From an uncultured bacterium (GTDB lineage: Bacteria; Elusimicrobiota; Elusimicrobia; Elusimicrobiales; Elusimicrobiaceae), in assembly GCA_949297775.1 (NCBI GenBank), contig CASFTM010000005.1:26605-90604 (forward strand): a stretch of DNA of 64,000 nucleotides. Reading direction: 5' to 3'. Position 1 is the stretch's first letter. Each line of letters opens with the position of its first letter. Both the position numbers and the translations under genes were made by a program. The notes under the pieces were generated by a model. That model had not been told where the DNA came from. It did no database searches and saw nothing but the letters and a program-made list of their open reading frames with translations. This document shows positions 1,469-40,776 of this stretch, in pieces.

Positions 1469-1996
1469 TTACAAACCCGACTTGCACAATTGGGTCCCCA
1501 AATCCGTTTTCCCCGTACAAGTAGTCTTGCCGGGATAAGAAGATTGATCCAGCCACACCGTATAGGAAAAATCAGCTTTTTCCAAACACGCTCCAAAGCT
1601 CAGTGTTTTGGCAAATGTCGGGCAATATAGCACACTCAAATATGCACTGCCCGGGGAAGCAGTATTATTTACACCTAGTAAAGGGTCCAACTGAAAGTCG
1701 TCGTCACAGACAAGCAAATCCCCCTGCAAAACAGAACAACTGGGGAATGCAATATCCATTTGCTGGATATCAACCGTATATTCCCCATTTGCCATATAAT
1801 AGGCTTCTTCCGCCGCCTTAAATTGCGCCGCAATTTGGCGCATATTGGCAAAGCGGGATTTTAATACCGCCAGTTGGTATTGCGGCAAAGCAATAGCCGC
1901 CAGGATACCAATGATTAAAACGACCACTAATAGTTCTATTAGCGTAAATCCGGCGTTTTCCCCCGCCGGGAAGGATTTTTGATAAATTTTGCTCAT
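1469..1996 (-). CDS. Type IV pilin-like (PilE-like) protein, palindrome class, copy 1
   Basis: Class III signal ENAG|[25 protein letters not shown]-terminal Cys pair; start placed at the ATG inside the inverted repeat. Confidence 0.9.
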   Translation of the reverse strand: MSKIYQKSFPAGENAGFTLIELLVVVLIIGILAAIALPQYQLAVLKSRFANMRQIAAQFKAAEEAYYMANGEYTVDIQQMDIAFPSCSVLQGDLLVCDDDFQLDPLLGVNNTASPGSAYLSVLYCPTFAKTLSFGACLEKADFSYTVWLDQSSYPGKTTCTGKTDLGTQLCKSGL

Positions 1997-2030
1997 AGCC
2001 AAAATTTATCAAAAAAAAAAAACAAATCAA
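1976..2030 (-). promoter_or_regulatory. Pilin start-site element copy 1: 16-bp IR, T12 tract, -35 TTGATT / -10 TAAATT
   Basis: Arms 1976-1991 and 2000-2015, spacer CTCATAGC, A12 at 2011-2022 on + strand; repeated at 4 other loci. Confidence 0.8.
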
Positions 2031-5017: not shown

Positions 5018-5539
5018 TTAGGAGTCTAAATTCATAGACTTACACAAATAATTGCCTAAATCGGTATAACCGGTGCATTCCTCTACATTGGGATAAGAAG
5101 AATGTTGCAGCCATAAACTGATGGTGGCATCGCATCCAGAAAAAAGGTTGCCTCCTATCCCGCGGGAATGATAAAAAATTCTTACGCGGTTGGCCCCGGC
5201 CACCGCATTGGGGCCGGTAATATTTGCCACATAAGCAAAAGGGCAATCCAACCGATGATCTGCTGAATCCAGTTCGCACACTTGGGTATAGTCTACATCC
5301 AAATCTTCCACCGGGATTGAATATTTTCCATTTGCCAAGTAATACATTTCCTGCGCCCGGCGAATACCCTGCGCCATTTGGTAATAATTCATTAGCCTCG
5401 TTTTCTGCACGGCGCGTTGGTATTGAGGAAGCGCTACCGCCGACAAAATACCAATGATTAAAACAACTACTAACAATTCTATTAGCGTAAATCCGGCGTT
5501 TTTCTTAGCCGGGAAGGGTTTTTGATAAATTTTGGTCAT
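5018..5539 (-). CDS. Type IV pilin-like protein, palindrome class, copy 2
   Basis: KNAG|[24 protein letters not shown]; C-terminal CTGYTDLGNYLC. Confidence 0.9.
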   Translation of the reverse strand: MTKIYQKPFPAKKNAGFTLIELLVVVLIIGILSAVALPQYQRAVQKTRLMNYYQMAQGIRRAQEMYYLANGKYSIPVEDLDVDYTQVCELDSADHRLDCPFAYVANITGPNAVAGANRVRIFYHSRGIGGNLFSGCDATISLWLQHSSYPNVEECTGYTDLGNYLCKSMNLDS

Positions 5540-5573
5540 AGCCAAAATTTATCAAAAAAAAAAAACGAGTCAA
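5519..5573 (-). promoter_or_regulatory. Pilin start-site element copy 2 (-35 TTGACT, T12, -10 TAAATT, IR)
   Basis: Arms 5519-5534 and 5543-5558, spacer GTCATAGC, A12 at 5554-5565. Confidence 0.8.
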
Positions 5574-10628: not shown

Positions 10629-13607
10629 ATGAAAAAACAACCCTTTTTAATATGCTGCCTGTTAGCCTTGGCCCTGCCCGTTTTGGCGTGCCCGGATAAC
10701 GACAGCAACAACATACTGACGTATGACGACCAAACGGTGGCCGGGTTGGAAGAAATCGTTGCCGGGCACGGCCAGCAAAACGCCGACGGCAACTCGGTCA
10801 TCATTACAAACAGCACCATTCAAGACAACGGCAGCCCGCTGCGCAATTCCCAGGTGGTCGGCGGCTGGGCGGTGGAAGAAACGGCCAACCAAAACCGTGT
10901 TGAAATTACCGATTCCACCGTTAACCGCAACATTGTGGGCGGTCAATCCACCTTCGGCACGCAGGCCAACGGCAACGTGGTCAGCATTACGCAATCCAAA
11001 GTAAACGAAGGCGCCGCCCTGCAGGATATGACCACTCTTTCGGCATATCAAGCCGAGCACCGCTACGATGCCATGGGAAACGACACTTATGTCCTTTCCA
11101 GTATGGCATCCGATTCGGTACAAACCGCGGGAAATATCACTCCGGAGTCTTCTCTCTACACCACCTACGGAGGTATGGTAGCTAACGGCGAAGCCTGCGG
11201 CAACCAAATTATTGTTACAGGCGATGGCAGCGTGATAGGCAACAACTTAATGGCGGCCTATTCCCCTTATTTGGAAGAAACCCACCTGCACGACAATTCC
11301 GTTACGGTAACCAATGCCCAAGTAACAGGTTTAATTACAGGCGCCGGCAGTTTGGGGGCCAATTGGAATACCACCATACAAGACCCGCTGACCGTCAACA
11401 ATAATTCGGTGACAATTACCGCTTCCCAAATTAACGACGCTATCGGCGCGTACGGCGGCTTAACCACCAACGGAAACCGCATTACGCTCGTAAATTCTTC
11501 AGCAGACAACTTATACGGCGTTTCCTTTGGGCAGGACATTTTCTACTCCGGTTCCCAACCCGCCACCATTGAAAACACCGCCAACAATAACAGCGTTCTC
11601 CTTTATAGCAATTCCTCCGCCACGGGCAATATCTACGGCGCCCAAAGCCACAGCGTGCAAGCCTACGGCAACCAAGTGGTGTTAGCCGGCGGTTCCTCCG
11701 CCCAAGGCGATATTTATGGGGCGCATGTTTCCAACGCCCGCGTGCAAACCAGCGATACTACCACAGATTGGAACACCGTGCAGACCGCGGCGGAAAACAA
11801 TACGCTTTCTCTCTCCGGGTCCACCGCCGGGAACGCTTCGGCCCATATAGCCGCCGCCAAAAACTTCAGCGGCTGGGCGAACAATAATACCGTAGACATT
11901 ACGGATTCCACCGTCAGCGCCGCCATTTTGGCGGGCGGCTGGGCCGAACACGAACGCCAAACGCTGACCACCAAAGGCCAGCAGAATTTTTCCATCGGCT
12001 ACCAAGCCGACGGCAACACCGTTTCCGCTGTCGGAAGCCAGTTTTCCGTCACTGTTTACGGCGGGTTCGTATCCACCAAAGACGATATCAATCCGGACGC
12101 CCTAACCGATGACACGCCTTCCTCCGCTTCGTCCAACCTGGTTCACTTAGACTCTTCCACCTTAACCGGCAACGTGTACGGCGGCGCCGCACAAGGGGAT
12201 TACACCGCGGCGAATAACAACCGCGTATGGTTAACAGACGCACAAGTAACAGGGAGTGTATATGGGGCGTTGGCGGAAGGGACCACTTCGTCCGCCGCAC
12301 AAAACGAAGTGATTTTGCAAAACAGCACCGTCACAGGGGACGTATACGCCGCGTCCGCCGCGCAAAGCGGCAGCAACACCGTCACGCTTTCGGGCCAAAG
12401 CCGTGTGGACGGCACGGTATATGGCGGCAACGGCGGGAACAACCAGCTGACACTGCTGAATTTCCAAAGCGACCAAGCGTTAAATGTAAGCGGGTTTGAC
12501 AAGCCATATATCATCTCCGGGGCGGATACGTCCGTGATTTTCGCCCAGGACGTAGCCCAAGGGGAAGTGTACGTGCAGGGCGTGGACGCCGTGGACGGCC
12601 GCGTGATTATCCAAACGCCGGACGAAAATTCCAGCTTTACCCTGCACGCCGCCGACTCCGGCGTGTATACCTATTCGCTGACGCCGCAGGCCCAGTCCAG
12701 CGGGCTTACCGGCTGGCTGCTGGCGGGCGGATTTTCCAGTGCGCGGGCCAAAACATACGCCCAAACAAGTATGGCCGCCTTGGCGTTGGCCAACGCCGGG
12801 GATAATTTACTGACCGATGCCGTCAGCGCCGCCTGGCAGAGCGACCAGGAAACCGGCTCTTTCCTGCAAAGCGGCTACGAAGAAACCCGCCACGAAACAG
12901 GCAGCGGCGTACACTTAAACGCCACCACCGTGCTAGGCGGCCTGTACGCCAAAACCGGCGACTGGCTGGGCGGTTTTTACGCCCGCTATGCTTATGGGGA
13001 CTATCACACCTACCCGGTACGGGCGGAAAGTTATGCTTCTTCCTGGGCGGGCGGCGTATTCGGCGCGTGGAACGGGGTGGAAAATCTCCGGCTGGGGGCC
13101 GATGCGCGCCTCGGCTGGCAAAGCACCAGCTACGGCGGATCGGAAGAAACAGGGGCGTCGTTTGATTACGAAAGCGTATTTACCTCGCTGCAAGCGTCGG
13201 CCCAATATGGATTTTGGCAGGATATGCAAGCCGAAGCCCGCCTGCGCTGGACACACATCCAAGGGGACAGCTTGACCGACAATTTAGGCGAAGCCGTTTC
13301 CCTGCACGCCAGCGACAGTTTGCTGAGCACCGTGGGCGTCACGTATGCGCCCCGCGCCCTGGCGTTTAACTATTTTACGCCGGAAGTGAAGGTGCAATGG
13401 CTGCACGAATTTAACGGGAAAGGCTCCGCCGATGTAGAAGGGCACCGCATAGACGGGCTTTCCCTGCGCGGCAGCACCGGGCGGGTAAGTTTGGGGCTTA
13501 ACTATCAACGCCCCGAACAAGGATTATTGGCGCGGCTGGCCGGCTTTGTGCAAGGCGGCCAGATGGACGGCTGGGGGCTGAAATTGGACGCCGCTCTGCG
13601 CTTTTAG
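10629..13607 (+). CDS. Autotransporter-like outer-membrane protein with beta-helical passenger
   Basis: Signal peptide, N/S/T/G-rich repeats (GNIYGA...ANNNxV), about 280-aa amphipathic beta C-terminus ending in Phe. Confidence 0.8.
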   Translation: MKKQPFLICCLLALALPVLACPDNDSNNILTYDDQTVAGLEEIVAGHGQQNADGNSVIITNSTIQDNGSPLRNSQVVGGWAVEETANQNRVEITDSTVNRNIVGGQSTFGTQANGNVVSITQSKVNEGAALQDMTTLSAYQAEHRYDAMGNDTYVLSSMASDSVQTAGNITPESSLYTTYGGMVANGEACGNQIIVTGDGSVIGNNLMAAYSPYLEETHLHDNSVTVTNAQVTGLITGAGSLGANWNTTIQDPLTVNNNSVTITASQINDAIGAYGGLTTNGNRITLVNSSADNLYGVSFGQDIFYSGSQPATIENTANNNSVLLYSNSSATGNIYGAQSHSVQAYGNQVVLAGGSSAQGDIYGAHVSNARVQTSDTTTDWNTVQTAAENNTLSLSGSTAGNASAHIAAAKNFSGWANNNTVDITDSTVSAAILAGGWAEHERQTLTTKGQQNFSIGYQADGNTVSAVGSQFSVTVYGGFVSTKDDINPDALTDDTPSSASSNLVHLDSSTLTGNVYGGAAQGDYTAANNNRVWLTDAQVTGSVYGALAEGTTSSAAQNEVILQNSTVTGDVYAASAAQSGSNTVTLSGQSRVDGTVYGGNGGNNQLTLLNFQSDQALNVSGFDKPYIISGADTSVIFAQDVAQGEVYVQGVDAVDGRVIIQTPDENSSFTLHAADSGVYTYSLTPQAQSSGLTGWLLAGGFSSARAKTYAQTSMAALALANAGDNLLTDAVSAAWQSDQETGSFLQSGYEETRHETGSGVHLNATTVLGGLYAKTGDWLGGFYARYAYGDYHTYPVRAESYASSWAGGVFGAWNGVENLRLGADARLGWQSTSYGGSEETGASFDYESVFTSLQASAQYGFWQDMQAEARLRWTHIQGDSLTDNLGEAVSLHASDSLLSTVGVTYAPRALAFNYFTPEVKVQWLHEFNGKGSADVEGHRIDGLSLRGSTGRVSLGLNYQRPEQGLLARLAGFVQGGQMDGWGLKLDAALRF

Positions 13608-13678: not shown

Positions 13679-14173
13679 TTATTTGATGCCATACCAATAG
13701 CCGGACGCTTTTACTCCGGCTAATGCGGCACATTTTTTCGCGCCATTCCAGTTATACCCGAAACACACTACATCTGTTTGCCTTTTTTCTATTTTTAAAT
13801 AATACAGATGATCTCTTCTCACTGCAAACCCGACACCGGCCTCGCCCCCCTGTTTCAAGCGATAACTAAAATCCTTTGTCTGTTTAGCCCGATAGCCGTC
13901 CACTTCAATCTCTTCCCCGGGAACGGTAATATCCAGCTCGTCTATATTAGAAGCATAAACACCATTCGCCAAGTAATAGGATTCCTGGGCCTGCATAATT
14001 TTGCGCAACATGGCTACCGCTTCCAATCCGCGGGCTTTGTCTACCGCCCGCTGGTACTGCGGCAACGCCACCGCCGCCAAAATACCAATAATTAAAACGA
14101 CTACTAACAGCTCTATTAGCGTGAAACCGGCGTTTTTCCCCGCCGGGTAGGATTTTTGATAAATTTTGCTCAT
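13679..14173 (-). CDS. Type IV pilin-like protein, palindrome class, copy 3
   Basis: KNAG|[24 protein letters not shown]; divergent C-terminal domain with Cys pair. Confidence 0.9.
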
Positions 14174-14207
14174 ACGCAAAATTTATCAAAAAAAAAAAAC
14201 AAATCAA
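14153..14207 (-). promoter_or_regulatory. Pilin start-site element copy 3
   Basis: Arms 14153-14168 and 14177-14192, spacer CTCATACG, A12 at 14188-14199, TTGATT at 14202-14207. Confidence 0.8.
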
Positions 14208-14309
14208 CCCCCTTGCCGGGGGCAGGCTTTTTGGCCCCGGCCAAGGGGGTTGCCTAATACGGTACTTACGCTATTAGGGAACAACTGGTTGAGGATGTTC
14301 CTGCAAGGG

Positions 14310-19305: not shown

Positions 19306-19749
19306 TCAATTGGAAAAATCCATCCTATATCTGCCGCCCGATAAATCCATCCCGATATTTAAGCAGGTTTGGCCGTCACCTGTACACTCAATATAATTCA
19401 GATCTCCATTGGAATTATAAGCCTTTAGGGTATAGCTGCCATCCGCGCGGGACGTGGAAACCGTTACCGTATTCCCGGAAAAAGAAACAGTCGGCGTAGT
19501 AAAATAAGCGCTTTTGGTCACATCCCCCACCTGCAACGCGGAAGACCCCGTAATAGAGGACGGGTAGGAATTCCCATTAACCACGTATTGCGCATTGATT
19601 GCGTCGCTGGCGGCGCGCAGATTGGAAATGCCTTCCACGGAGCGGCCGCGCTCCAACGAGGCGTAATACTTCGGGAGAGCCACCGTTACCAATACGCCCA
19701 CTACCACCATGACAATTAACAATTCAATTAATGTAAAACCCTTGTTCAT
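19306..19749 (-). CDS. Type IV pilin-like protein, short-leader class
   Basis: MNKG|FTLIELLIVMVVVGVLVTVALPKY; AGGAGG RBS; no palindrome element. Confidence 0.88.
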   Translation of the reverse strand: MNKGFTLIELLIVMVVVGVLVTVALPKYYASLERGRSVEGISNLRAASDAINAQYVVNGNSYPSSITGSSALQVGDVTKSAYFTTPTVSFSGNTVTVSTSRADGSYTLKAYNSNGDLNYIECTGDGQTCLNIGMDLSGGRYRMDFSN

Positions 19750-19860
19750 AAATCCTCCTGGAATTTAATTATATAAATTTGCCCCTTTGATTAACAGTAT
19801 AATTCTTTTTTCGCCCTTTGCCAGTTTTTTTATAAAATGAAAAAAACGCCCGGGGGTAAG

Positions 19861-21069
19861 ATGAACATTAAAAAACTCTTTTGGATTTTATTTTTGCTTA
19901 ACCTGTTTAACTACATAGACCGGCAGGTGCTATATTCCGTATTCCCGCTGCTGCAGGCCGATTTAAACATTACCGATTTGCAGCTTGGTGCGTTGGCCTC
20001 GGTATTTATGTTGGTCTATATGTGTTATGCCCCATTGGTCGGCTATTTTGCCGACCGAACCCCCCGCCACAAATGGATTGGCTTCAGCGCACTGATTTGG
20101 AGCATTGCCACACTGGCCTGTGCCGGAGCCAAAAACTATGCGTCCCTTTTGGGTGCGCGGGGGCTCATCGGCGTAGGGGAAGCCGGGTTTACCACTATCG
20201 CCCAACCGTTTTTAGCTGAAAACTACCCCCCACAAAAACGCGCCTCCATATTGGCCATTTTTGGGTTGGCGCTCCCTCTAGGCAGTGCGCTTGGATATTT
20301 ATGGGGCGGCGTAATAGGCCTGCACTGGGGCTGGCGGGCGGCTTTTTTGCTGGCGGGCGTGCCGGGGTTAATCCTGGGTTTTTTGGCGTGGACGCAACTC
20401 CAGGATGTCCGCCGCGCCCAACAGCGCCCTTCCGAAAAACCCGGCTGGAACGATTATTGGGCATTGCTTTGCAACAAACCATTTTTATTTATCTGCCTGG
20501 CGCACGCAATGCTGACGTTTATTACCGGCGGGCTGTCCGCTTGGATGCCCACCTATCTGCACCGTTATTTAGGGATGGATGTAGCGCAGGCAGGCACGGT
20601 ATTTGGCGCGTTAGTAATCCTTTGCGGCGCGGCAGGCACCTACCTGGGAGGGAAAGGAGCCGATAAGCTGCTATCCTACACCCCAAAAGCCTATTTTTGG
20701 GTAATGCTCGTAGCTTTCGTCGGGATTTTGCTGCCCGCCTGGGTTGGGGTACAGGCTACGCACGCCCCGGCAGTTTTGGCGTGTTTTGGCGTGGCGATTG
20801 TATGCCTATTTTTGCCCACCGGCCCCATTGCTGCGGCGTTAGTAGCCACCACCCGGCAAAAAGTACAGGCGATGGCGTTTGCCGTAAATATCTTTCTGAT
20901 ACACGCACTGGGGGACGCCATTTCGCCGGTGCTGGTGGGGCACGCGTCGGACTTGTGGGGGCTCAAAACCGCCGTACTGCTGTGCACTGCCATTTCCTTG
21001 CCCGGCATACTGTTTGCCTGGCTGGCCTTCCGCCCAAACGGAACAAAGCATCAAGCGGACATTAATTAA
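19861..21069 (+). CDS. MFS transporter (spinster-like)
   Basis: LNLFNYIDR, GYFADR, RGLIGVGEA motifs, about 12 TM. Confidence 0.88.
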   Translation: MNIKKLFWILFLLNLFNYIDRQVLYSVFPLLQADLNITDLQLGALASVFMLVYMCYAPLVGYFADRTPRHKWIGFSALIWSIATLACAGAKNYASLLGARGLIGVGEAGFTTIAQPFLAENYPPQKRASILAIFGLALPLGSALGYLWGGVIGLHWGWRAAFLLAGVPGLILGFLAWTQLQDVRRAQQRPSEKPGWNDYWALLCNKPFLFICLAHAMLTFITGGLSAWMPTYLHRYLGMDVAQAGTVFGALVILCGAAGTYLGGKGADKLLSYTPKAYFWVMLVAFVGILLPAWVGVQATHAPAVLACFGVAIVCLFLPTGPIAAALVATTRQKVQAMAFAVNIFLIHALGDAISPVLVGHASDLWGLKTAVLLCTAISLPGILFAWLAFRPNGTKHQADIN

Positions 21070-21189
21070 TGTGGTAACGCTTGTAAACGGTATCTTCCCA
21101 AAACATCGGCCCATAGCCGGCGCATAAACGATTTGAAACGGCAGAAGAAGATTTACCCTCCTATATACCTACCATTGAACCCCGCTATT

Positions 21190-21269
21190 AGATATCCGGC
21201 GTTTTTCCCCCAGGGAGAAGGTTTTGATACATTTTGTGTATGAGCAAAATCTATCAAAAAACAAATCAA
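21190..21269 (-). pseudogene. Decayed pilin 5' end with degenerate start-site element (spacer inverted, tract of 6)
   Basis: GGAAAAACGCCGGA...CTAATAG remnant of KNAGFTLIE coding DNA; arms 21222-21236 and 21245-21259; rest of gene absent. Confidence 0.75.
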
Positions 21270-21476
21270 GGGGCGGGCCGGCGCTCTTTTTCGCCCTTTT
21301 TCTGGCGGCAGGAAAAGGGCTGTATAATTAGTGATTTTTGTTGCTCCCTGGGGCACCGGGCCGCTGTTCCCCTGCCTTTACCCGTTACCGCGATTCGTGG
21401 AGCCACCTTGCTTCCGCGTTGCCGCACGCTTGTCAGGTTCCCCCTTCTTGGATACTTTTTCCGCCGGAAAAAGTAT
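21270..21476. repeat. Pilin-upstream mosaic repeat, rearranged module order
   Basis: Modules shared with 37771-37819, 37747-37770, 2057-2100 and 14616-14641. Confidence 0.75.
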
Positions 21477-21497
21477 TGTTAAAAGGCATACGCATAA

Positions 21498-21551: not shown

Positions 21552-21699
21552 TTACTTCACCGCGTTGTAACCAGCTTCCAACGCTTTTTTATTTTTATGG
21601 CATTAAAATCCCCTGGGCTTTCGCTCCAGGGGATAAATCTTCGCCTTCTAACGCACTTACTTCACCGCGTTGTAACCAGCTTCCAACGCTTTTTTATTT
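21552..21699. repeat. 43-bp perfect direct repeat duplicating the 3' end of the oxidoreductase gamma gene
   Basis: 21552-21594 is identical to 21657-21699. Confidence 0.92.
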
Positions 21700-22193
21700 A
21701 GTTCCAGCATTTCCGGTTTGGCACGCTTGTACACTTTCTTCATCGCGTGTTCCACGCTTTGCAGCGTTACCGCGCCGGTTTGCTTAATAAACGCACCCAG
21801 CGCCACTAAGTTGGCGATGCGGTCCATCCCCAATTCTTCCGCAATTTTGTTGCACGGCACGCATACAACAGTAATGTCGGTACGGGCCGGGCGGGAGTTA
21901 ATCAACGAGCTGTTGATAATCATCAGCCCGCCTTTTTTGAGCAGCGGTTCAAACTTAGGCAAGGACGGCTCGTTCATAACAATTACCGTATCGGGCACGG
22001 AAACAATAGGCGTATAGACTTCTCCGTCCGTTACCACCACCGAGCAGTTGGCGGTGCCGCCGCGCATTTCAGGCCCATACGAAGGCAGCCAGCTGGCGTT
22101 TTTCTTATCTTCCACACCGGCCTGCGCCAAGAGAATCCCCGCGGAAATAACACCCTGTCCGCCGAAACCGGCTATTCGGATACCTTGATACAT
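21657..22193 (-). CDS. 2-oxoacid:ferredoxin oxidoreductase gamma subunit
   Basis: IRIAGFGGQGV, PSYGPEMRGG. Confidence 0.93.
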   Translation of the reverse strand: MYQGIRIAGFGGQGVISAGILLAQAGVEDKKNASWLPSYGPEMRGGTANCSVVVTDGEVYTPIVSVPDTVIVMNEPSLPKFEPLLKKGGLMIINSSLINSRPARTDITVVCVPCNKIAEELGMDRIANLVALGAFIKQTGAVTLQSVEHAMKKVYKRAKPEMLELNKKALEAGYNAVK

Positions 22194-36957: not shown

Positions 36958-37473
36958 CTAAAAATGAAGCGCTTTGCACAACCGGCGGCCGCGGTCGGTT
37001 GTGGCATCGCAAGTGATTGCGTTTGGATTGGAAGAATTGGCAAAAAATACATGCGCGGTAGCAATACGGGAGGAAGAACAAGTTCCGTCACCGGGGCAAT
37101 AAATGGCCCGCACCTGGTGCTGTGCTAAAGCGGGTTGTATTGACCCGTGGATATTATCCAGCTGTCCGTTTTCGCAGCGTATTTGGCTGGAATCATTGGC
37201 AAGAAGTTGACACGCCGAAGAATAATCCACATCCAAGTCCGCAAGCTTGATTGTATACGATCCGTTTGCCATATAATAAACTTCCTGCGCTTTGCGGATA
37301 TCCGACGCCATTTGGATGAGCGTCATCATACGAGATTTGTCCACCGCCAGTTGGTATTGCGGAAGCGCCACCGCCGACAAAATACCAATGATTAAAACAA
37401 CCACTAACAGCTCTATTAACGTAAATCCGGCGTTTTTCCCCGCCGGGAAGGATTTTTGATAAATTTTGGTCAT
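36958..37473 (-). CDS. Type IV pilin-like protein, palindrome class, copy 4
   Basis: KNAG|[24 protein letters not shown]; C-terminal CDATTDRGRRLC. Confidence 0.9.
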   Translation of the reverse strand: MTKIYQKSFPAGKNAGFTLIELLVVVLIIGILSAVALPQYQLAVDKSRMMTLIQMASDIRKAQEVYYMANGSYTIKLADLDVDYSSACQLLANDSSQIRCENGQLDNIHGSIQPALAQHQVRAIYCPGDGTCSSSRIATAHVFFANSSNPNAITCDATTDRGRRLCKALHF

Positions 37474-37507
37474 AGCCAAAATTTATCAAAAAAAAAAAAC
37501 AAATCAA
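37453..37507 (-). promoter_or_regulatory. Pilin start-site element copy 4
   Basis: Arms 37453-37468 and 37477-37492, spacer GTCATAGC, A12 at 37488-37499. Confidence 0.8.
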
Positions 37508-40293: not shown

Positions 40294-40776
40294 ATGCAAA
40301 AAGGTTTTACGCTGATAGAATTATTAGTGGTTGTGCTGATTATCGGCATATTGGCGGCGGTCGCTCTGCCGCAGTATCAGCTGGCGGTGGACAAAAGCCG
40401 CCTGGCGGGAGCAATTTCGTTGGCGCAGTCTTTGCGCAAAGCGCAGGAAATTTATTATATGTCCAATAACGCTTACAGTGTGGATTTGGAAAATTTTGAT
40501 ATTGATTTATCTAAATCCTGCCGCCGTTCCGCCCCGGGAATGATTAATTGCCACCACTATATTGTTGACAACATCTACGGCGACCTAAATACTTCCGAAG
40601 AAGTCAACCAAGTGGCTATTTTCTATGTGCCTTCCAACCCCGGACAGACCGCCCAAAAAGACGCCCTTATCCATGTGTATCTGGAACATTCTTCCCTCCC
40701 CAACGAAATTACCTGCGAGGGCTTTACCGACCGCGGCAAAAAATTGTGCCGTGCTTCGGGCTATACAGTCATTTAA
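40294..40776 (+). CDS. Type IV pilin-like protein, short-leader class
   Basis: MQKG|[24 protein letters not shown]; GGAGG RBS; C-terminal CEGFTDRGKKLC. Confidence 0.9.
   Translation: MQKGFTLIELLVVVLIIGILAAVALPQYQLAVDKSRLAGAISLAQSLRKAQEIYYMSNNAYSVDLENFDIDLSKSCRRSAPGMINCHHYIVDNIYGDLNTSEEVNQVAIFYVPSNPGQTAQKDALIHVYLEHSSLPNEITCEGFTDRGKKLCRASGYTVI

What the first reader, a model, noticed from the sequence alone, without database searches (positions are those of the whole stretch)
21222..21269. Flipped start codon: the 8-bp spacer is inverted at the decayed fifth pilin locus
Seen: both flanks keep the orientation of the other copies, but the spacer reads TGTATGAG. Its reverse complement CTCATACA matches 7/8 of the copy-3 spacer CTCATACG. 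The ATG therefore points away from the pilin remnant and starts the + strand ORF MSKIYQK (21240). The two paired arm positions are both mutated, and one change creates a new in-frame ATG (ATT to ATG) on the pilin strand. The downstream gene is lost. Inferred: micro-inversion between the arms removes the start codon while keeping the promoter, an ON/OFF mechanism I do not know from any described pilin system. It could also be a one-off hairpin-loop inversion in a pseudogene.
Basis: partly seen in the sequence, partly recalled or inferred. Interest (0 to 1): 0.85.

Follow-up and report, generated by a model that had tools for sequence, protein, structure and literature searches.

The report
One-off spacer flip in dead pilin gene
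The 8-base spacer really is flipped, but it sits in a long-dead, partly deleted pilin gene whose promoter is also broken, and no intact copy in about 190 related sites is flipped, so it is an ordinary replication accident and not a genetic switch.

Summary
At 21222-21259 a 15-8-15 palindrome keeps both outer flanks in the orientation of the four intact pilin loci, but its spacer is reverse-complemented, so the ATG faces away from the pilin remnant.

The ON/OFF interpretation is not supported.
- The locus is a pseudogene. Its orthologs in seven related assemblies are intact 164-169 aa pilin genes with normal spacers. The window lineage has lost about 330 nt of coding sequence.
- The promoter was not kept. 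Six T of the -35/-10 tract are gone (spacing 16 to 10), and the -10 changed from TAAATT to TAGATT.
- The same inverted, decayed allele is fixed in three independent samples or strains.
- None of 194 non-identical palindromes from gut Elusimicrobiales genomes and metagenomes has an inverted spacer.
- No recombinase gene lies in the 64 kb window.

The best explanation is a single template-switch (hairpin-loop) inversion between the arms, which is a known class of mutation. Raw reads were not available, so rare switching within a population is not strictly excluded.

Two side results are more interesting. The palindrome is a conserved pilin promoter element that apparently produces leaderless mRNA. 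Its poly-T tract varies in length between strains.

The parts
21245..21259 (-). Promoter-side arm of the decayed palindrome. The pilin strand reads TTTTGATAGATTTTG and contains the mutated -10 hexamer TAGATT (+ coordinates 21248-21253; family consensus TAAATT).
21237..21244 (-). Inverted 8-bp spacer. It reads CTCATACA on the pilin strand and TGTATGAG on the + strand, so the former start codon now lies on the + strand at 21240-21242.
21222..21236 (-). Coding-side arm. The pilin strand reads CAAAATGTATCAAAA. The T to G change at mirror position 9 creates an in-frame ATG that opens only 14 codons.
21260..21269 (-). Shortened poly-T tract plus the -35 hexamer TTGATT (+ 21264-21269). The -35/-10 spacing is 10 nt here, against 16 nt in the four intact copies.
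   Evidence: alignment
21062..21221 (-). Pilin pseudogene remnant. It comprises a frameshifted N-terminal fragment (21178-21221), a 14-nt middle fragment (21164-21177) and the last 33 codons plus stop (21062-21163, ...CAGYGPMFWEDTVYKRYHIN*). About 330 nt are missing in two blocks relative to ortholog L116.
21240..21482 (+). Fortuitous + strand ORF (MSKIYQKTNQ..., 80 aa) opened by the flipped ATG. It has no family match and is frameshifted by a 1-nt A-run difference in the X2 strain.
1977..2014 (-). Intact palindrome of pilin copy 1 (gene 1469-1996), spacer GCTATGAG, promoter TTGATT-N16-TAAATT.
5520..5557 (-). Intact palindrome of pilin copy 2 (gene 5018-5539), spacer GCTATGAC. The scan tool calls the promoter TTGACT-16-TAAATT with a TG extended -10.
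14154..14191 (-). Intact palindrome of pilin copy 3 (gene 13679-14173), spacer CGTATGAG. A terminator-like GC hairpin lies directly upstream of the -35.
37454..37491 (-). Intact palindrome of pilin copy 4 (gene 36958-37473), spacer GCTATGAC.
21552..21699 (.). 43-nt perfect direct repeat (21552-21594 and 21657-21699) that duplicates the 3' end of the kor-gamma (POR) gene. It is a scar of the rearrangement that removed a 369-aa response-regulator-like gene, which sits between the pilin and kor genes in relatives.

Best explanation
The fifth locus is a dead paralog of a family of type IV pilin-like genes in a chicken-gut Elusimicrobiales bacterium.

In the living copies, a perfect 15-bp inverted repeat brackets an 8-bp spacer that holds the start codon. 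The upstream arm carries an extended -10 element (TG-n-TAAATT). A -35 (TTGAYT) lies 16 nt further up, across a poly-T tract. The ATG begins 7 nt after the -10, so the mRNA is predicted to be leaderless (inferred from geometry; there is no RNA data).

At the fifth locus, a single non-programmed event reverse-complemented the spacer, using the two arms as the switch points. The most likely route is a replication template switch in which the nascent strand jumps to the complementary arm, copies the spacer backwards and jumps back. The donor could be the locus itself or a paralogous palindrome aligned antiparallel, since all arms are identical and self-complementary.

For a leaderless gene this removes the start codon and is a null mutation. 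Either it was the first inactivating hit, or it happened after the gene was already dead; the order cannot be resolved. The locus then decayed, or had already decayed: 6 T lost from the promoter tract, a -10 mutation, frameshifts and about 330 nt of internal deletion.

The allele became fixed and has stayed in one orientation in all sampled strains of this lineage.

Shown: the inversion, the pseudogene state, fixation, and the absence of inversion elsewhere. Inferred: the template-switch mechanism, the leaderless start and the order of events.
For: - Anatomy: only the spacer is reverse-complemented; both flanks keep their orientation.
- Chance: substitutions alone give this pattern in at most 0.2% of simulations.
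- Hairpin potential: the arms fold as single-stranded DNA at -15.1 kcal/mol in intact copies and -9.5 at the fifth copy.
- Orthology: the convergent MFS gene and the kor genes flank the site. At the same position L083, L116, L123, L124, L125, L127 and L128 carry intact 164-169 aa N_methyl pilin genes with normal spacers (GCTATGA[ACG] on the pilin strand), perfect arms and full T tracts.
- Decay in the window lineage: -35/-10 spacing of 10 instead of 16, TAGATT instead of TAAATT, indels and about 330 nt deleted.
- Fixation: the identical allele is in L114 (another sample, 99.5% identity) and in L115. Run X2 carries the same pseudogene and deletion junction, with spacer TATATGAG (still inverted).
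- Census: 0 inverted among 194 non-identical sites (137 with a TATG core, 53 with non-ATG spacers). There were 0 metagenome hits for an inverted spacer in an intact context, against 64 orientation-defined copies. Independent assemblies of intact copies 1 and 2 (L193, L194, L197) have normal spacers.
- No recombinase: none was found among the 63 ORFs of at least 110 aa in the window.
- Literature: template switching between short inverted repeats causes spacer inversion. [quoted passage not shown] Quasipalindrome template switching is established in E. coli (PMC7202029). Inversions of 4-50 bp at hairpins are pervasive in plastid DNA (PMC12371153).
Against: - The reverse complement of the spacer matches a paralog (7/8) better than the orthologs (5-6/8). 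So extra substitutions or an ectopic donor are needed.
- Both arms carry a change at the same mirror position, giving a G/G mismatch. A template switch does not produce this; it would homogenise the arms. Under uniform neutral mutation, two hits at mirror positions have a chance of about 1/29. This is softened by the fact that position 9 is the one variable arm position family-wide (8 of 11 left-arm and 14 of 22 right-arm changes).
- Only assembled contigs were available, not raw reads, so low-frequency inversion at intact loci was not tested directly. The contig pile-ups have limited sensitivity, because many contigs break inside the palindrome.
Confidence: 0.87

Rival explanations
1. Reversible micro-inversion switch. 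The palindrome is a flip-flop. Inversion of the 8-bp spacer toggles the start codon of a leaderless pilin mRNA ON or OFF at an appreciable rate, and the fifth locus is a copy caught, or stuck, in OFF.
For: - The start codon sits exactly in the invertible spacer of a perfect 15-bp palindrome at every intact window copy.
- Spacer inversions by template switching are in principle reversible (PMC8604942).
- Multi-copy pilin families are typical targets of phase variation (general knowledge).
Against: - 0 of 194 non-identical sites are inverted, including 7 orthologs and 3 other-sample assemblies of intact window loci.
- The only inverted copy is a deleted pseudogene with a broken promoter.
- The inverted state shows no reversion in three samples or strains.
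- In a whole class of related loci the spacer holds no ATG and translation starts downstream from an SD. The palindrome is equally conserved there, so its function is not to hold a flippable start codon.
- No recombinase is nearby, and 8 bp is far too short for recombinase-mediated inversion.
Confidence: 0.04
2. Ectopic short-patch conversion. The spacer was imported, backwards, from a paralogous palindrome that paired antiparallel through the identical self-complementary arms, rather than being inverted in place.
For: - The reverse complement of the spacer is closest to the CGTATGAG type carried by copy 3 and by L193/L194 (7/8), not to the ortholog type GCTATGAC/G (5-6/8).
- All arms are identical across many copies per genome.
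Against: - Spacers differ between orthologs of the same locus anyway. Copy 1 is GCTATGAG in the window and CGTATGAG in L193/L194, so resemblance to a paralog is weak evidence.
- The outcome is indistinguishable from an in-place inversion followed by 2-3 substitutions.
- This is a sub-variant of the best explanation (one-off, non-programmed) and its probability is counted inside that explanation.
Confidence: 0.15
3. No inversion at all. Independent point substitutions in a decaying pseudogene happen to resemble a reverse complement.
For: - The locus is a pseudogene with many other changes.
- The family core TATG and its reverse complement CATA share the central AT, so only two core changes are needed.
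Against: - It needs 6 of 8 spacer positions changed relative to the orthologs, while the adjacent 30 arm positions have 2 changes and the 10 nt upstream have none.
- In simulation, the probability of an apparent inversion is 8e-5 at 10% divergence and never exceeds 0.23%.
Confidence: 0.02
4. Assembly or sequencing artefact at a palindrome, such as a fold-back chimera.
For: Palindromes are prone to chimeric reads, and Logan contigs often break inside this palindrome.
Against: The same allele is recovered by different assemblers from different samples: the window, Logan contig L115, and ENA contig L114 with 12 SNPs. A diverged version occurs in another study's run X2.
Confidence: 0.01

Closest known systems
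Inverted-repeat spacer inversion by DNA polymerase template switching (Ripley-type quasipalindrome mutagenesis; 'minute inversions' at hairpins in plastid DNA)
   Same: A short segment (8 bp) bounded by inverted repeats longer than 9 bp is exactly reverse-complemented while the flanks stay put. No recombinase is involved, and it is a rare one-off mutation that can become fixed (PMC8604942, PMC7202029, PMC12371153).
   Different: Here the spacer contains the start codon of a predicted leaderless gene, so the inversion is an immediate null mutation. The arms now carry a mirror-position mismatch that template switching does not explain.
Recombinase-driven invertible promoter switches (E. coli fimS/FimBE, Salmonella hin, Bacteroides invertible promoters)
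   Same: The idea is similar: inversion of a segment between inverted repeats turns a surface-structure gene off. (Comparison from general knowledge.)
   Different: Those switches invert a segment of hundreds of bp that carries a promoter, need a dedicated recombinase encoded nearby, and show both orientations in every population. Here the segment is 8 bp, no recombinase is present in 64 kb, only one orientation is seen, and the gene is destroyed.
lox/FRT/dif-type tyrosine recombinase core sites
   Same: The form is the same: two inverted arms of about 13-15 bp around an asymmetric 6-8 bp spacer that gives the site its polarity. (Comparison from general knowledge.)
   Different: No cognate recombinase was found. 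Synteny is conserved on both sides of every palindrome compared, so the sites are not rearrangement breakpoints. A recombinase cannot invert the spacer of a single site.
Slipped-strand phase variation at homopolymer tracts in promoter spacers (Bordetella fim poly-C, Mycoplasma hyorhinis vlp poly-A; recalled from general knowledge)
   Same: The pilin promoters here have a 12-T tract between the -35 and the -10. Its length differs between sites and between assemblies of the same locus. The decayed locus has lost 6 T.
   Different: Heterogeneity within a population and its effect on expression are untested. Most sites (87%) have the canonical spacing of 15-17.

Membership tests
IR spacer inversion by template switching (mutational class) | The inverted segment is bounded on both sides by inverted repeat arms (arms longer than 9 bp in documented cases) | tested here: met
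   15-bp arms, perfect in the intact copies and 14/15 in the fifth copy; 8-bp spacer; criterion from PMC8604942
IR spacer inversion by template switching (mutational class) | The segment equals the reverse complement of the ancestral or orthologous sequence, while the flanks outside the arms keep their orientation | tested here: met
   Flanks are collinear with 7 orthologs. The reverse complement matches family spacers at 7/8 and orthologs at 5-6/8, against 2/8 when read directly. The match is not perfect, so 1-3 later substitutions are needed.
IR spacer inversion by template switching (mutational class) | The event happens during replication by two polymerase jumps | not testable with these tools
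   The mechanism is inferred from anatomy and literature only.
Programmed invertible-element phase variation | Both orientations coexist in populations or among close strains | tested here: not met
   0 inverted among 194 non-identical sites and 0 metagenome hits. The fifth locus is in the same orientation in 3 samples or strains. Contig pile-ups showed no central-spacer variants at the 1% threshold, but their sensitivity is limited. No raw reads were available.
Programmed invertible-element phase variation | A dedicated site-specific recombinase is encoded at or near the element | tested here: not met
   Pfam scan of 63 window ORFs found no integrase, invertase or transposase. None appears in the gene tables of the orthologous loci.
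Programmed invertible-element phase variation | The controlled gene is intact and expressible in the ON orientation | tested here: not met
   About 330 nt deleted, frameshifts, promoter spacing of 10 nt
lox/FRT-type recombinase core site | Sites act as breakpoints of inversions or deletions between copies | tested here: not met
   Synteny is conserved across the palindromes in relatives.
Type IV pilin-like proteins (prepilin N-terminal methylation motif) | Pfam N_methyl (PF07963) above the gathering score, with G-F-T-L-I-E-L after a leader peptide | tested here: met
   Met for the four intact window genes and for ortholog L116 (30.6-35.8 bits against a cut-off of 21.2). The fifth locus keeps only fragments.
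Leaderless mRNA | The transcription start coincides with the start codon, with no Shine-Dalgarno sequence | not testable with these tools
   Geometry fits: TTGAYT-N16-TG-n-TAAATT-N6-ATG, with only the T tract and arm upstream. No RNA runs hold the locus.
Slipped-strand promoter-spacer phase variation | A homopolymer tract between -35 and -10 whose length varies between and within populations | tested here: inconclusive
   The tract is 6-15 T with a mode of 12. 13% of sites have spacing outside 15-17. Copy 1 differs between assemblies (16, 13 and 12). Variation within a population is not testable without raw reads.

The most novel reading that the evidence does not exclude
The 15-8-15 palindrome with the start codon in its spacer could be a recombinase-independent flip-flop. 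Rare, reversible template-switch inversions would stochastically silence and reactivate individual leaderless pilin genes within a population. The rate would be too low to appear in consensus assemblies, and the fifth locus would be a fossil of a copy that stayed OFF long enough to decay.
Probability: 0.04. Interest if true: 0.75.

Novelty: already known. Interest (0 to 1): 0.2.

Why it matters
As a switch it would have been a new, enzyme-free way to phase-vary a surface protein, but the evidence does not support that. What remains is a clean bacterial example of a known mutation class (inverted-repeat spacer inversion) knocking out a gene in one step, because the start codon lies in the hairpin loop. 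That is mainly of interest to people who annotate pseudogenes or study template-switch mutagenesis.

The side observations may be more useful for understanding how these little-studied gut bacteria control their many pilin genes. One is a strictly conserved palindromic pilin promoter that apparently gives leaderless mRNA across gut Elusimicrobiales. The other is a poly-T tract between the -35 and -10 that varies in length.

Tried and rejected
- Rfam scan of the window found only two tRNAs and no RNA family at the palindromes.
- Exact-protein look-up of the MFS neighbour from the first ATG found nothing, because the called gene starts 8 codons later. I used neighbouring genes and homologs instead.
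- No RNA runs hold the locus, so the transcription start and the leaderless prediction could not be tested.
- All DNA runs are held only as Logan contigs, not raw reads, so minority alleles within a sample could not be tested.
- Contig pile-ups on intact copies 3 and 4 in eight samples showed no central-spacer variants at a 1% threshold. Many contigs break inside the palindrome and differences near contig ends are not listed, so I treat this as weak support only.
- I considered a lox-like recombination site and rejected it: no recombinase, conserved synteny, and a single site cannot invert its own spacer.
- I considered inversion of a large segment between two palindromes and rejected it. That would join the promoter flank to another copy's promoter flank, whereas here the pilin-coding flank is retained.
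- I considered that the arm is conserved because it encodes the leader peptide KIYQK and rejected it. The arm is equally conserved where it is untranslated.
- The promoter scan tool does not call copy 3 (8 of 12 matches, threshold 9) but does call copy 2. The promoter reading for TTGATT copies rests on conserved geometry.
- The E. minutum genome paper (PMC2681670) is not held.

Full report
**What is in the sequence**

The window carries five copies of a 38-bp element: two 15-bp arms (TTTTGATAAATTTTG / CAAAATTTATCAAAA) around an 8-bp spacer. The left arms start at 1977, 5520, 14154, 21222 and 37454. That gives 10 arm matches where 0.38 are expected by chance.

Four copies sit at the 5' end of intact genes on the - strand (1469-1996, 5018-5539, 13679-14173, 36958-37473). 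Their products begin M[ST]KIYQK...[10 protein letters not shown] and match Pfam N_methyl above its cut-off, so they are type IV pilin-like proteins. On the pilin strand their spacers read GCTATGAG, GCTATGAC, CGTATGAG and GCTATGAC, so the ATG lies in the spacer.

The fifth copy reads, on the pilin strand, TTGATTTGTT-TTTTGATAGATTTTG-CTCATACA-CAAAATGTATCAAAA-CCTTCTCCCTGGGGGAAAAACGCCGG. The upstream flank (-35 region) and the downstream flank (remnant of the leader-peptide coding sequence) are in the normal orientation. The spacer is the reverse complement of a normal one: TGTATGAG matches copy 3 at 7/8. Both arms are changed at mirror position 9, and one of these changes turns ATT into an in-frame ATG.

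**Is it more than chance?**

Against the true orthologs (spacers GCTATGAC and GCTATGAG), the observed spacer differs at 6 of 8 positions when read directly and at 2-3 of 8 when reverse-complemented. The neighbouring 30 arm positions carry only two changes. Simulated substitutions alone give an apparent inversion in 8e-5 of trials at 10% divergence and never in more than 0.23%.

It is not an assembly artefact. The identical allele is present in an ENA contig from another sample (L114, 12 mismatches in 2644 nt) and in the Logan contig of the source run (L115). Run X2, from a different study, has a diverged version: spacer TATATGAG on the + strand (still inverted), one extra A in the A-run, and the same deletion junction.

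**What the locus is**

The organism is a gut member of the Elusimicrobiales. The closest assemblies are chicken-gut and other gut MAGs.

The fifth locus lies between a convergent MFS transporter gene (19837-21069) and the kor/POR gamma gene (21657-22193). At exactly this position the related assemblies L083, L116 (MFS protein 96% identical), L123, L124, L125, L127 and L128 carry an intact 164-169 aa pilin gene. In each, the spacer is normal, the arms are perfect A/T arms and the poly-T tract is full length. L126, another ortholog, also has a normal spacer and an intact gene, but its promoter-side arm is truncated.

Aligned to L116, the window lineage shows these lesions:
- 6 T lost from the tract between -35 and -10, so the spacing falls from 16 to 10.
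- The -10 hexamer is TAGATT instead of TAAATT.
- The spacer is inverted.
- The coding-side arm has a T to G change.
- The leader region has frameshifting indels.
- Two deletion blocks together remove about 330 nt.

Only the last 33 codons (...CAGYGPMFWEDTVYKRYHIN*) remain recognisable. The new ATG opens 14 codons and then a stop.

Relatives also have a 369-aa response-regulator-like gene between the pilin and kor genes. The window has lost it, leaving a 43-nt perfect duplication of the kor-gamma 3' end as a scar. Another lineage (L119-L122) has lost this pilin gene completely. This pilin paralog is therefore dispensable and has been lost more than once. The statement that the promoter is kept is wrong.

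**Is spacer inversion a recurring switch?**

- A metagenome scan for an inverted spacer (NNCATANN) behind a long T tract and perfect arms found nothing. The same pattern with a free spacer found 64 sites.
- Pooling all fetched loci gives 194 non-identical palindromes: 137 with the normal TATG core, 53 with other non-ATG spacers, 4 that could not be oriented, and none inverted.
- Independent assemblies of the window's own intact copies 1 and 2 from other samples (L193, L194, L197) have normal spacers.
- Contig pile-ups from eight samples on intact copies 3 and 4 show variation only at the outermost spacer positions at a 1% threshold. These contigs often break inside the palindrome, so this is weak evidence.
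- No raw-read runs were available.
- No integrase, invertase or transposase is encoded anywhere in the window, which is a housekeeping region: ribosomal protein operon, mreBC-PBP2-rodA, glycine cleavage, uvrD, gatA.
- In one class of related loci the spacer has no ATG at all (for example CGTATAGG or AGTTGTAG). A Shine-Dalgarno sequence plus ATG follows 10-15 nt after the arm, yet the palindrome is just as conserved. Its function is therefore not to present a flippable start codon.

**Most likely mechanism**

The most likely mechanism is a single replication template switch between the arms. Intermolecular template switching between short inverted repeats is documented to invert the spacer. [quoted passage not shown] Quasipalindrome template switching is an established mutational pathway in E. 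coli (PMC7202029). Hairpin-associated inversions of 4-50 bp are pervasive in plastid genomes (PMC12371153).

The intact palindrome is a strong single-strand hairpin: -15.1 kcal/mol, z = -8.3. Because the arms of all copies are identical and self-complementary, the donor could also have been a paralog aligned antiparallel. That would explain why the flipped spacer resembles the CGTATGAG type more than the ortholog type. The two routes cannot be told apart.

Whether the inversion killed the gene or hit an already dead gene is unresolved. All sampled members of the lineage share both the inversion and the deletions.

**An unexplained detail**

Both arms are changed at the same mirror position, giving a G/G mismatch. 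Template switching does not produce this. Under uniform neutral mutation the chance is about 1 in 29.

Position 9 is, however, the only frequently variable arm position in the family. It accounts for 8 of 11 left-arm and 14 of 22 right-arm changes, including compensated C-G (6) and G-C (2) pairs. It is also the third base of the -10 hexamer. One or both changes may therefore predate the decay.

The T to G change that creates an ATG could have been a short-lived rescue of the start codon. That is speculation and cannot be tested here.

**What the palindrome is in the living genes (side result)**

In all four intact window copies the geometry is TTGAYT - 16 nt (mostly T) - TG-n-TAAATT - 6 nt - ATG. 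The scan tool calls copy 2 as TTGACT-16-TAAATT with a TG extended -10. Copy 3 scores 8 of 12 and is not called. Across the related loci, 116 of 158 sites with a recognisable -35 have a spacing of 16.

The upstream arm is thus the extended -10 element. The ATG lies where transcription would start and there is no Shine-Dalgarno sequence, which predicts a leaderless mRNA. This is inferred; no RNA data exist. A GC hairpin followed by the T tract directly upstream looks like a terminator. That argues against an RNA hairpin containing both arms.

The downstream arm is conserved even where it is not translated, so the symmetry acts at the DNA level. It could be an operator for a dimeric regulator, or it could be maintained by arm homogenisation. 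I found no paper describing this element.

The poly-T tract is length-polymorphic: 6-15 T with a mode of 12. About 13% of sites have spacing outside 15-17, including some with open pilin frames. The copy-1 locus has spacing 16, 13 and 12 in three assemblies. If these pilin genes phase-vary, tract slippage is a better candidate mechanism than spacer inversion.

**Verdict**

The interpretation as a new ON/OFF mechanism is not supported. The phenomenon belongs to a known mutational class. Interest is low (0.2). A rare reversible switch is not strictly excluded without raw reads (probability about 0.04).

Noticed in passing
window 1977-2030, 5520-5573, 14154-14207, 37454-37507 (- strand); loci L001-L192: The 15-8-15 palindrome is a strictly conserved promoter-proximal element of long-leader pilin genes across gut Elusimicrobiales. 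The geometry is TTGAYT-N16-TG-n-TAAATT-N6-ATG, which predicts leaderless mRNA. A second class has no ATG in the spacer and an SD plus ATG just after the right arm, with the arm equally conserved, so the symmetry acts at the DNA level. I found no description of it in the searched literature.
   Followed up: partly
window 2015-2024, 5558-5567, 14192-14201, 37492-37501 (the A-runs on the + strand); L193 2352-2371, L194 2358-2372: The poly-T tract between the -35 and -10 is length-polymorphic (6-15 T, mode 12). It differs between assemblies of the same locus: copy-1 spacing is 16 in the window, 13 in L194 and 12 in L193. This is a candidate for slipped-strand phase variation of the pilin promoters. 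Heterogeneity within a population was not testable.
   Followed up: partly
window 21552-21594 and 21657-21699: A perfect 43-nt direct repeat duplicates the 3' end of the kor-gamma (POR) gene. It is probably a scar of the deletion that removed a 369-aa response-regulator-like gene, which lies between the pilin and kor genes in relatives (L123-L128).
   Followed up: partly
window 21275-21320: A short GC-rich segment (GGGCGGGCCGGCGCTCTTTTTCGCCCTTTTTCTGGCGGCAGG...) piles up at very high depth (up to about 1700x against about 10x for the flanks) in several gut metagenomes. It looks like a dispersed short repeat, also seen upstream of other pilin promoters in variant form.
   Followed up: no
window 14207-14223 (- strand): A GC-rich hairpin followed by the T tract sits immediately upstream of, and overlaps, the -35 of pilin copy 3. 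It looks like an intrinsic terminator that insulates the promoter. Similar GC palindromes precede copies 1 and 4.
   Followed up: partly
L126 4690-4740: In one ortholog of the fifth locus the promoter-side arm is truncated (TATC lost, A-run of 18), while the spacer is normal and the gene intact. This is either a natural variant that breaks the palindrome or a homopolymer assembly error.
   Followed up: no
L193 2391-2420: The ortholog of pilin copy 1 in another sample has one A fewer in the A-run right after the coding-side arm, which frameshifts the gene after codon 7. It also has a shortened promoter spacer. It may be an OFF or decaying allele.
   Followed up: no
window 19306-19749 (-) and 40294-40776 (+): Two further N_methyl pilin-like genes have a short leader (MNKGFTLIEL...) and no palindrome. 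The palindrome therefore marks only the long-leader subfamily.
   Followed up: partly
L011, L030, L033, L044, L046, L053 (CAVHDF01 contigs): A MAG labelled Eggerthellaceae carries many copies of this Elusimicrobiales pilin palindrome. The bin is probably mislabelled or contaminated.
   Followed up: no
window 10629-13607 (+): A 992-aa ORF has no Pfam match at E<=1e-5. It is the largest uncharacterised gene in the window.
   Followed up: no
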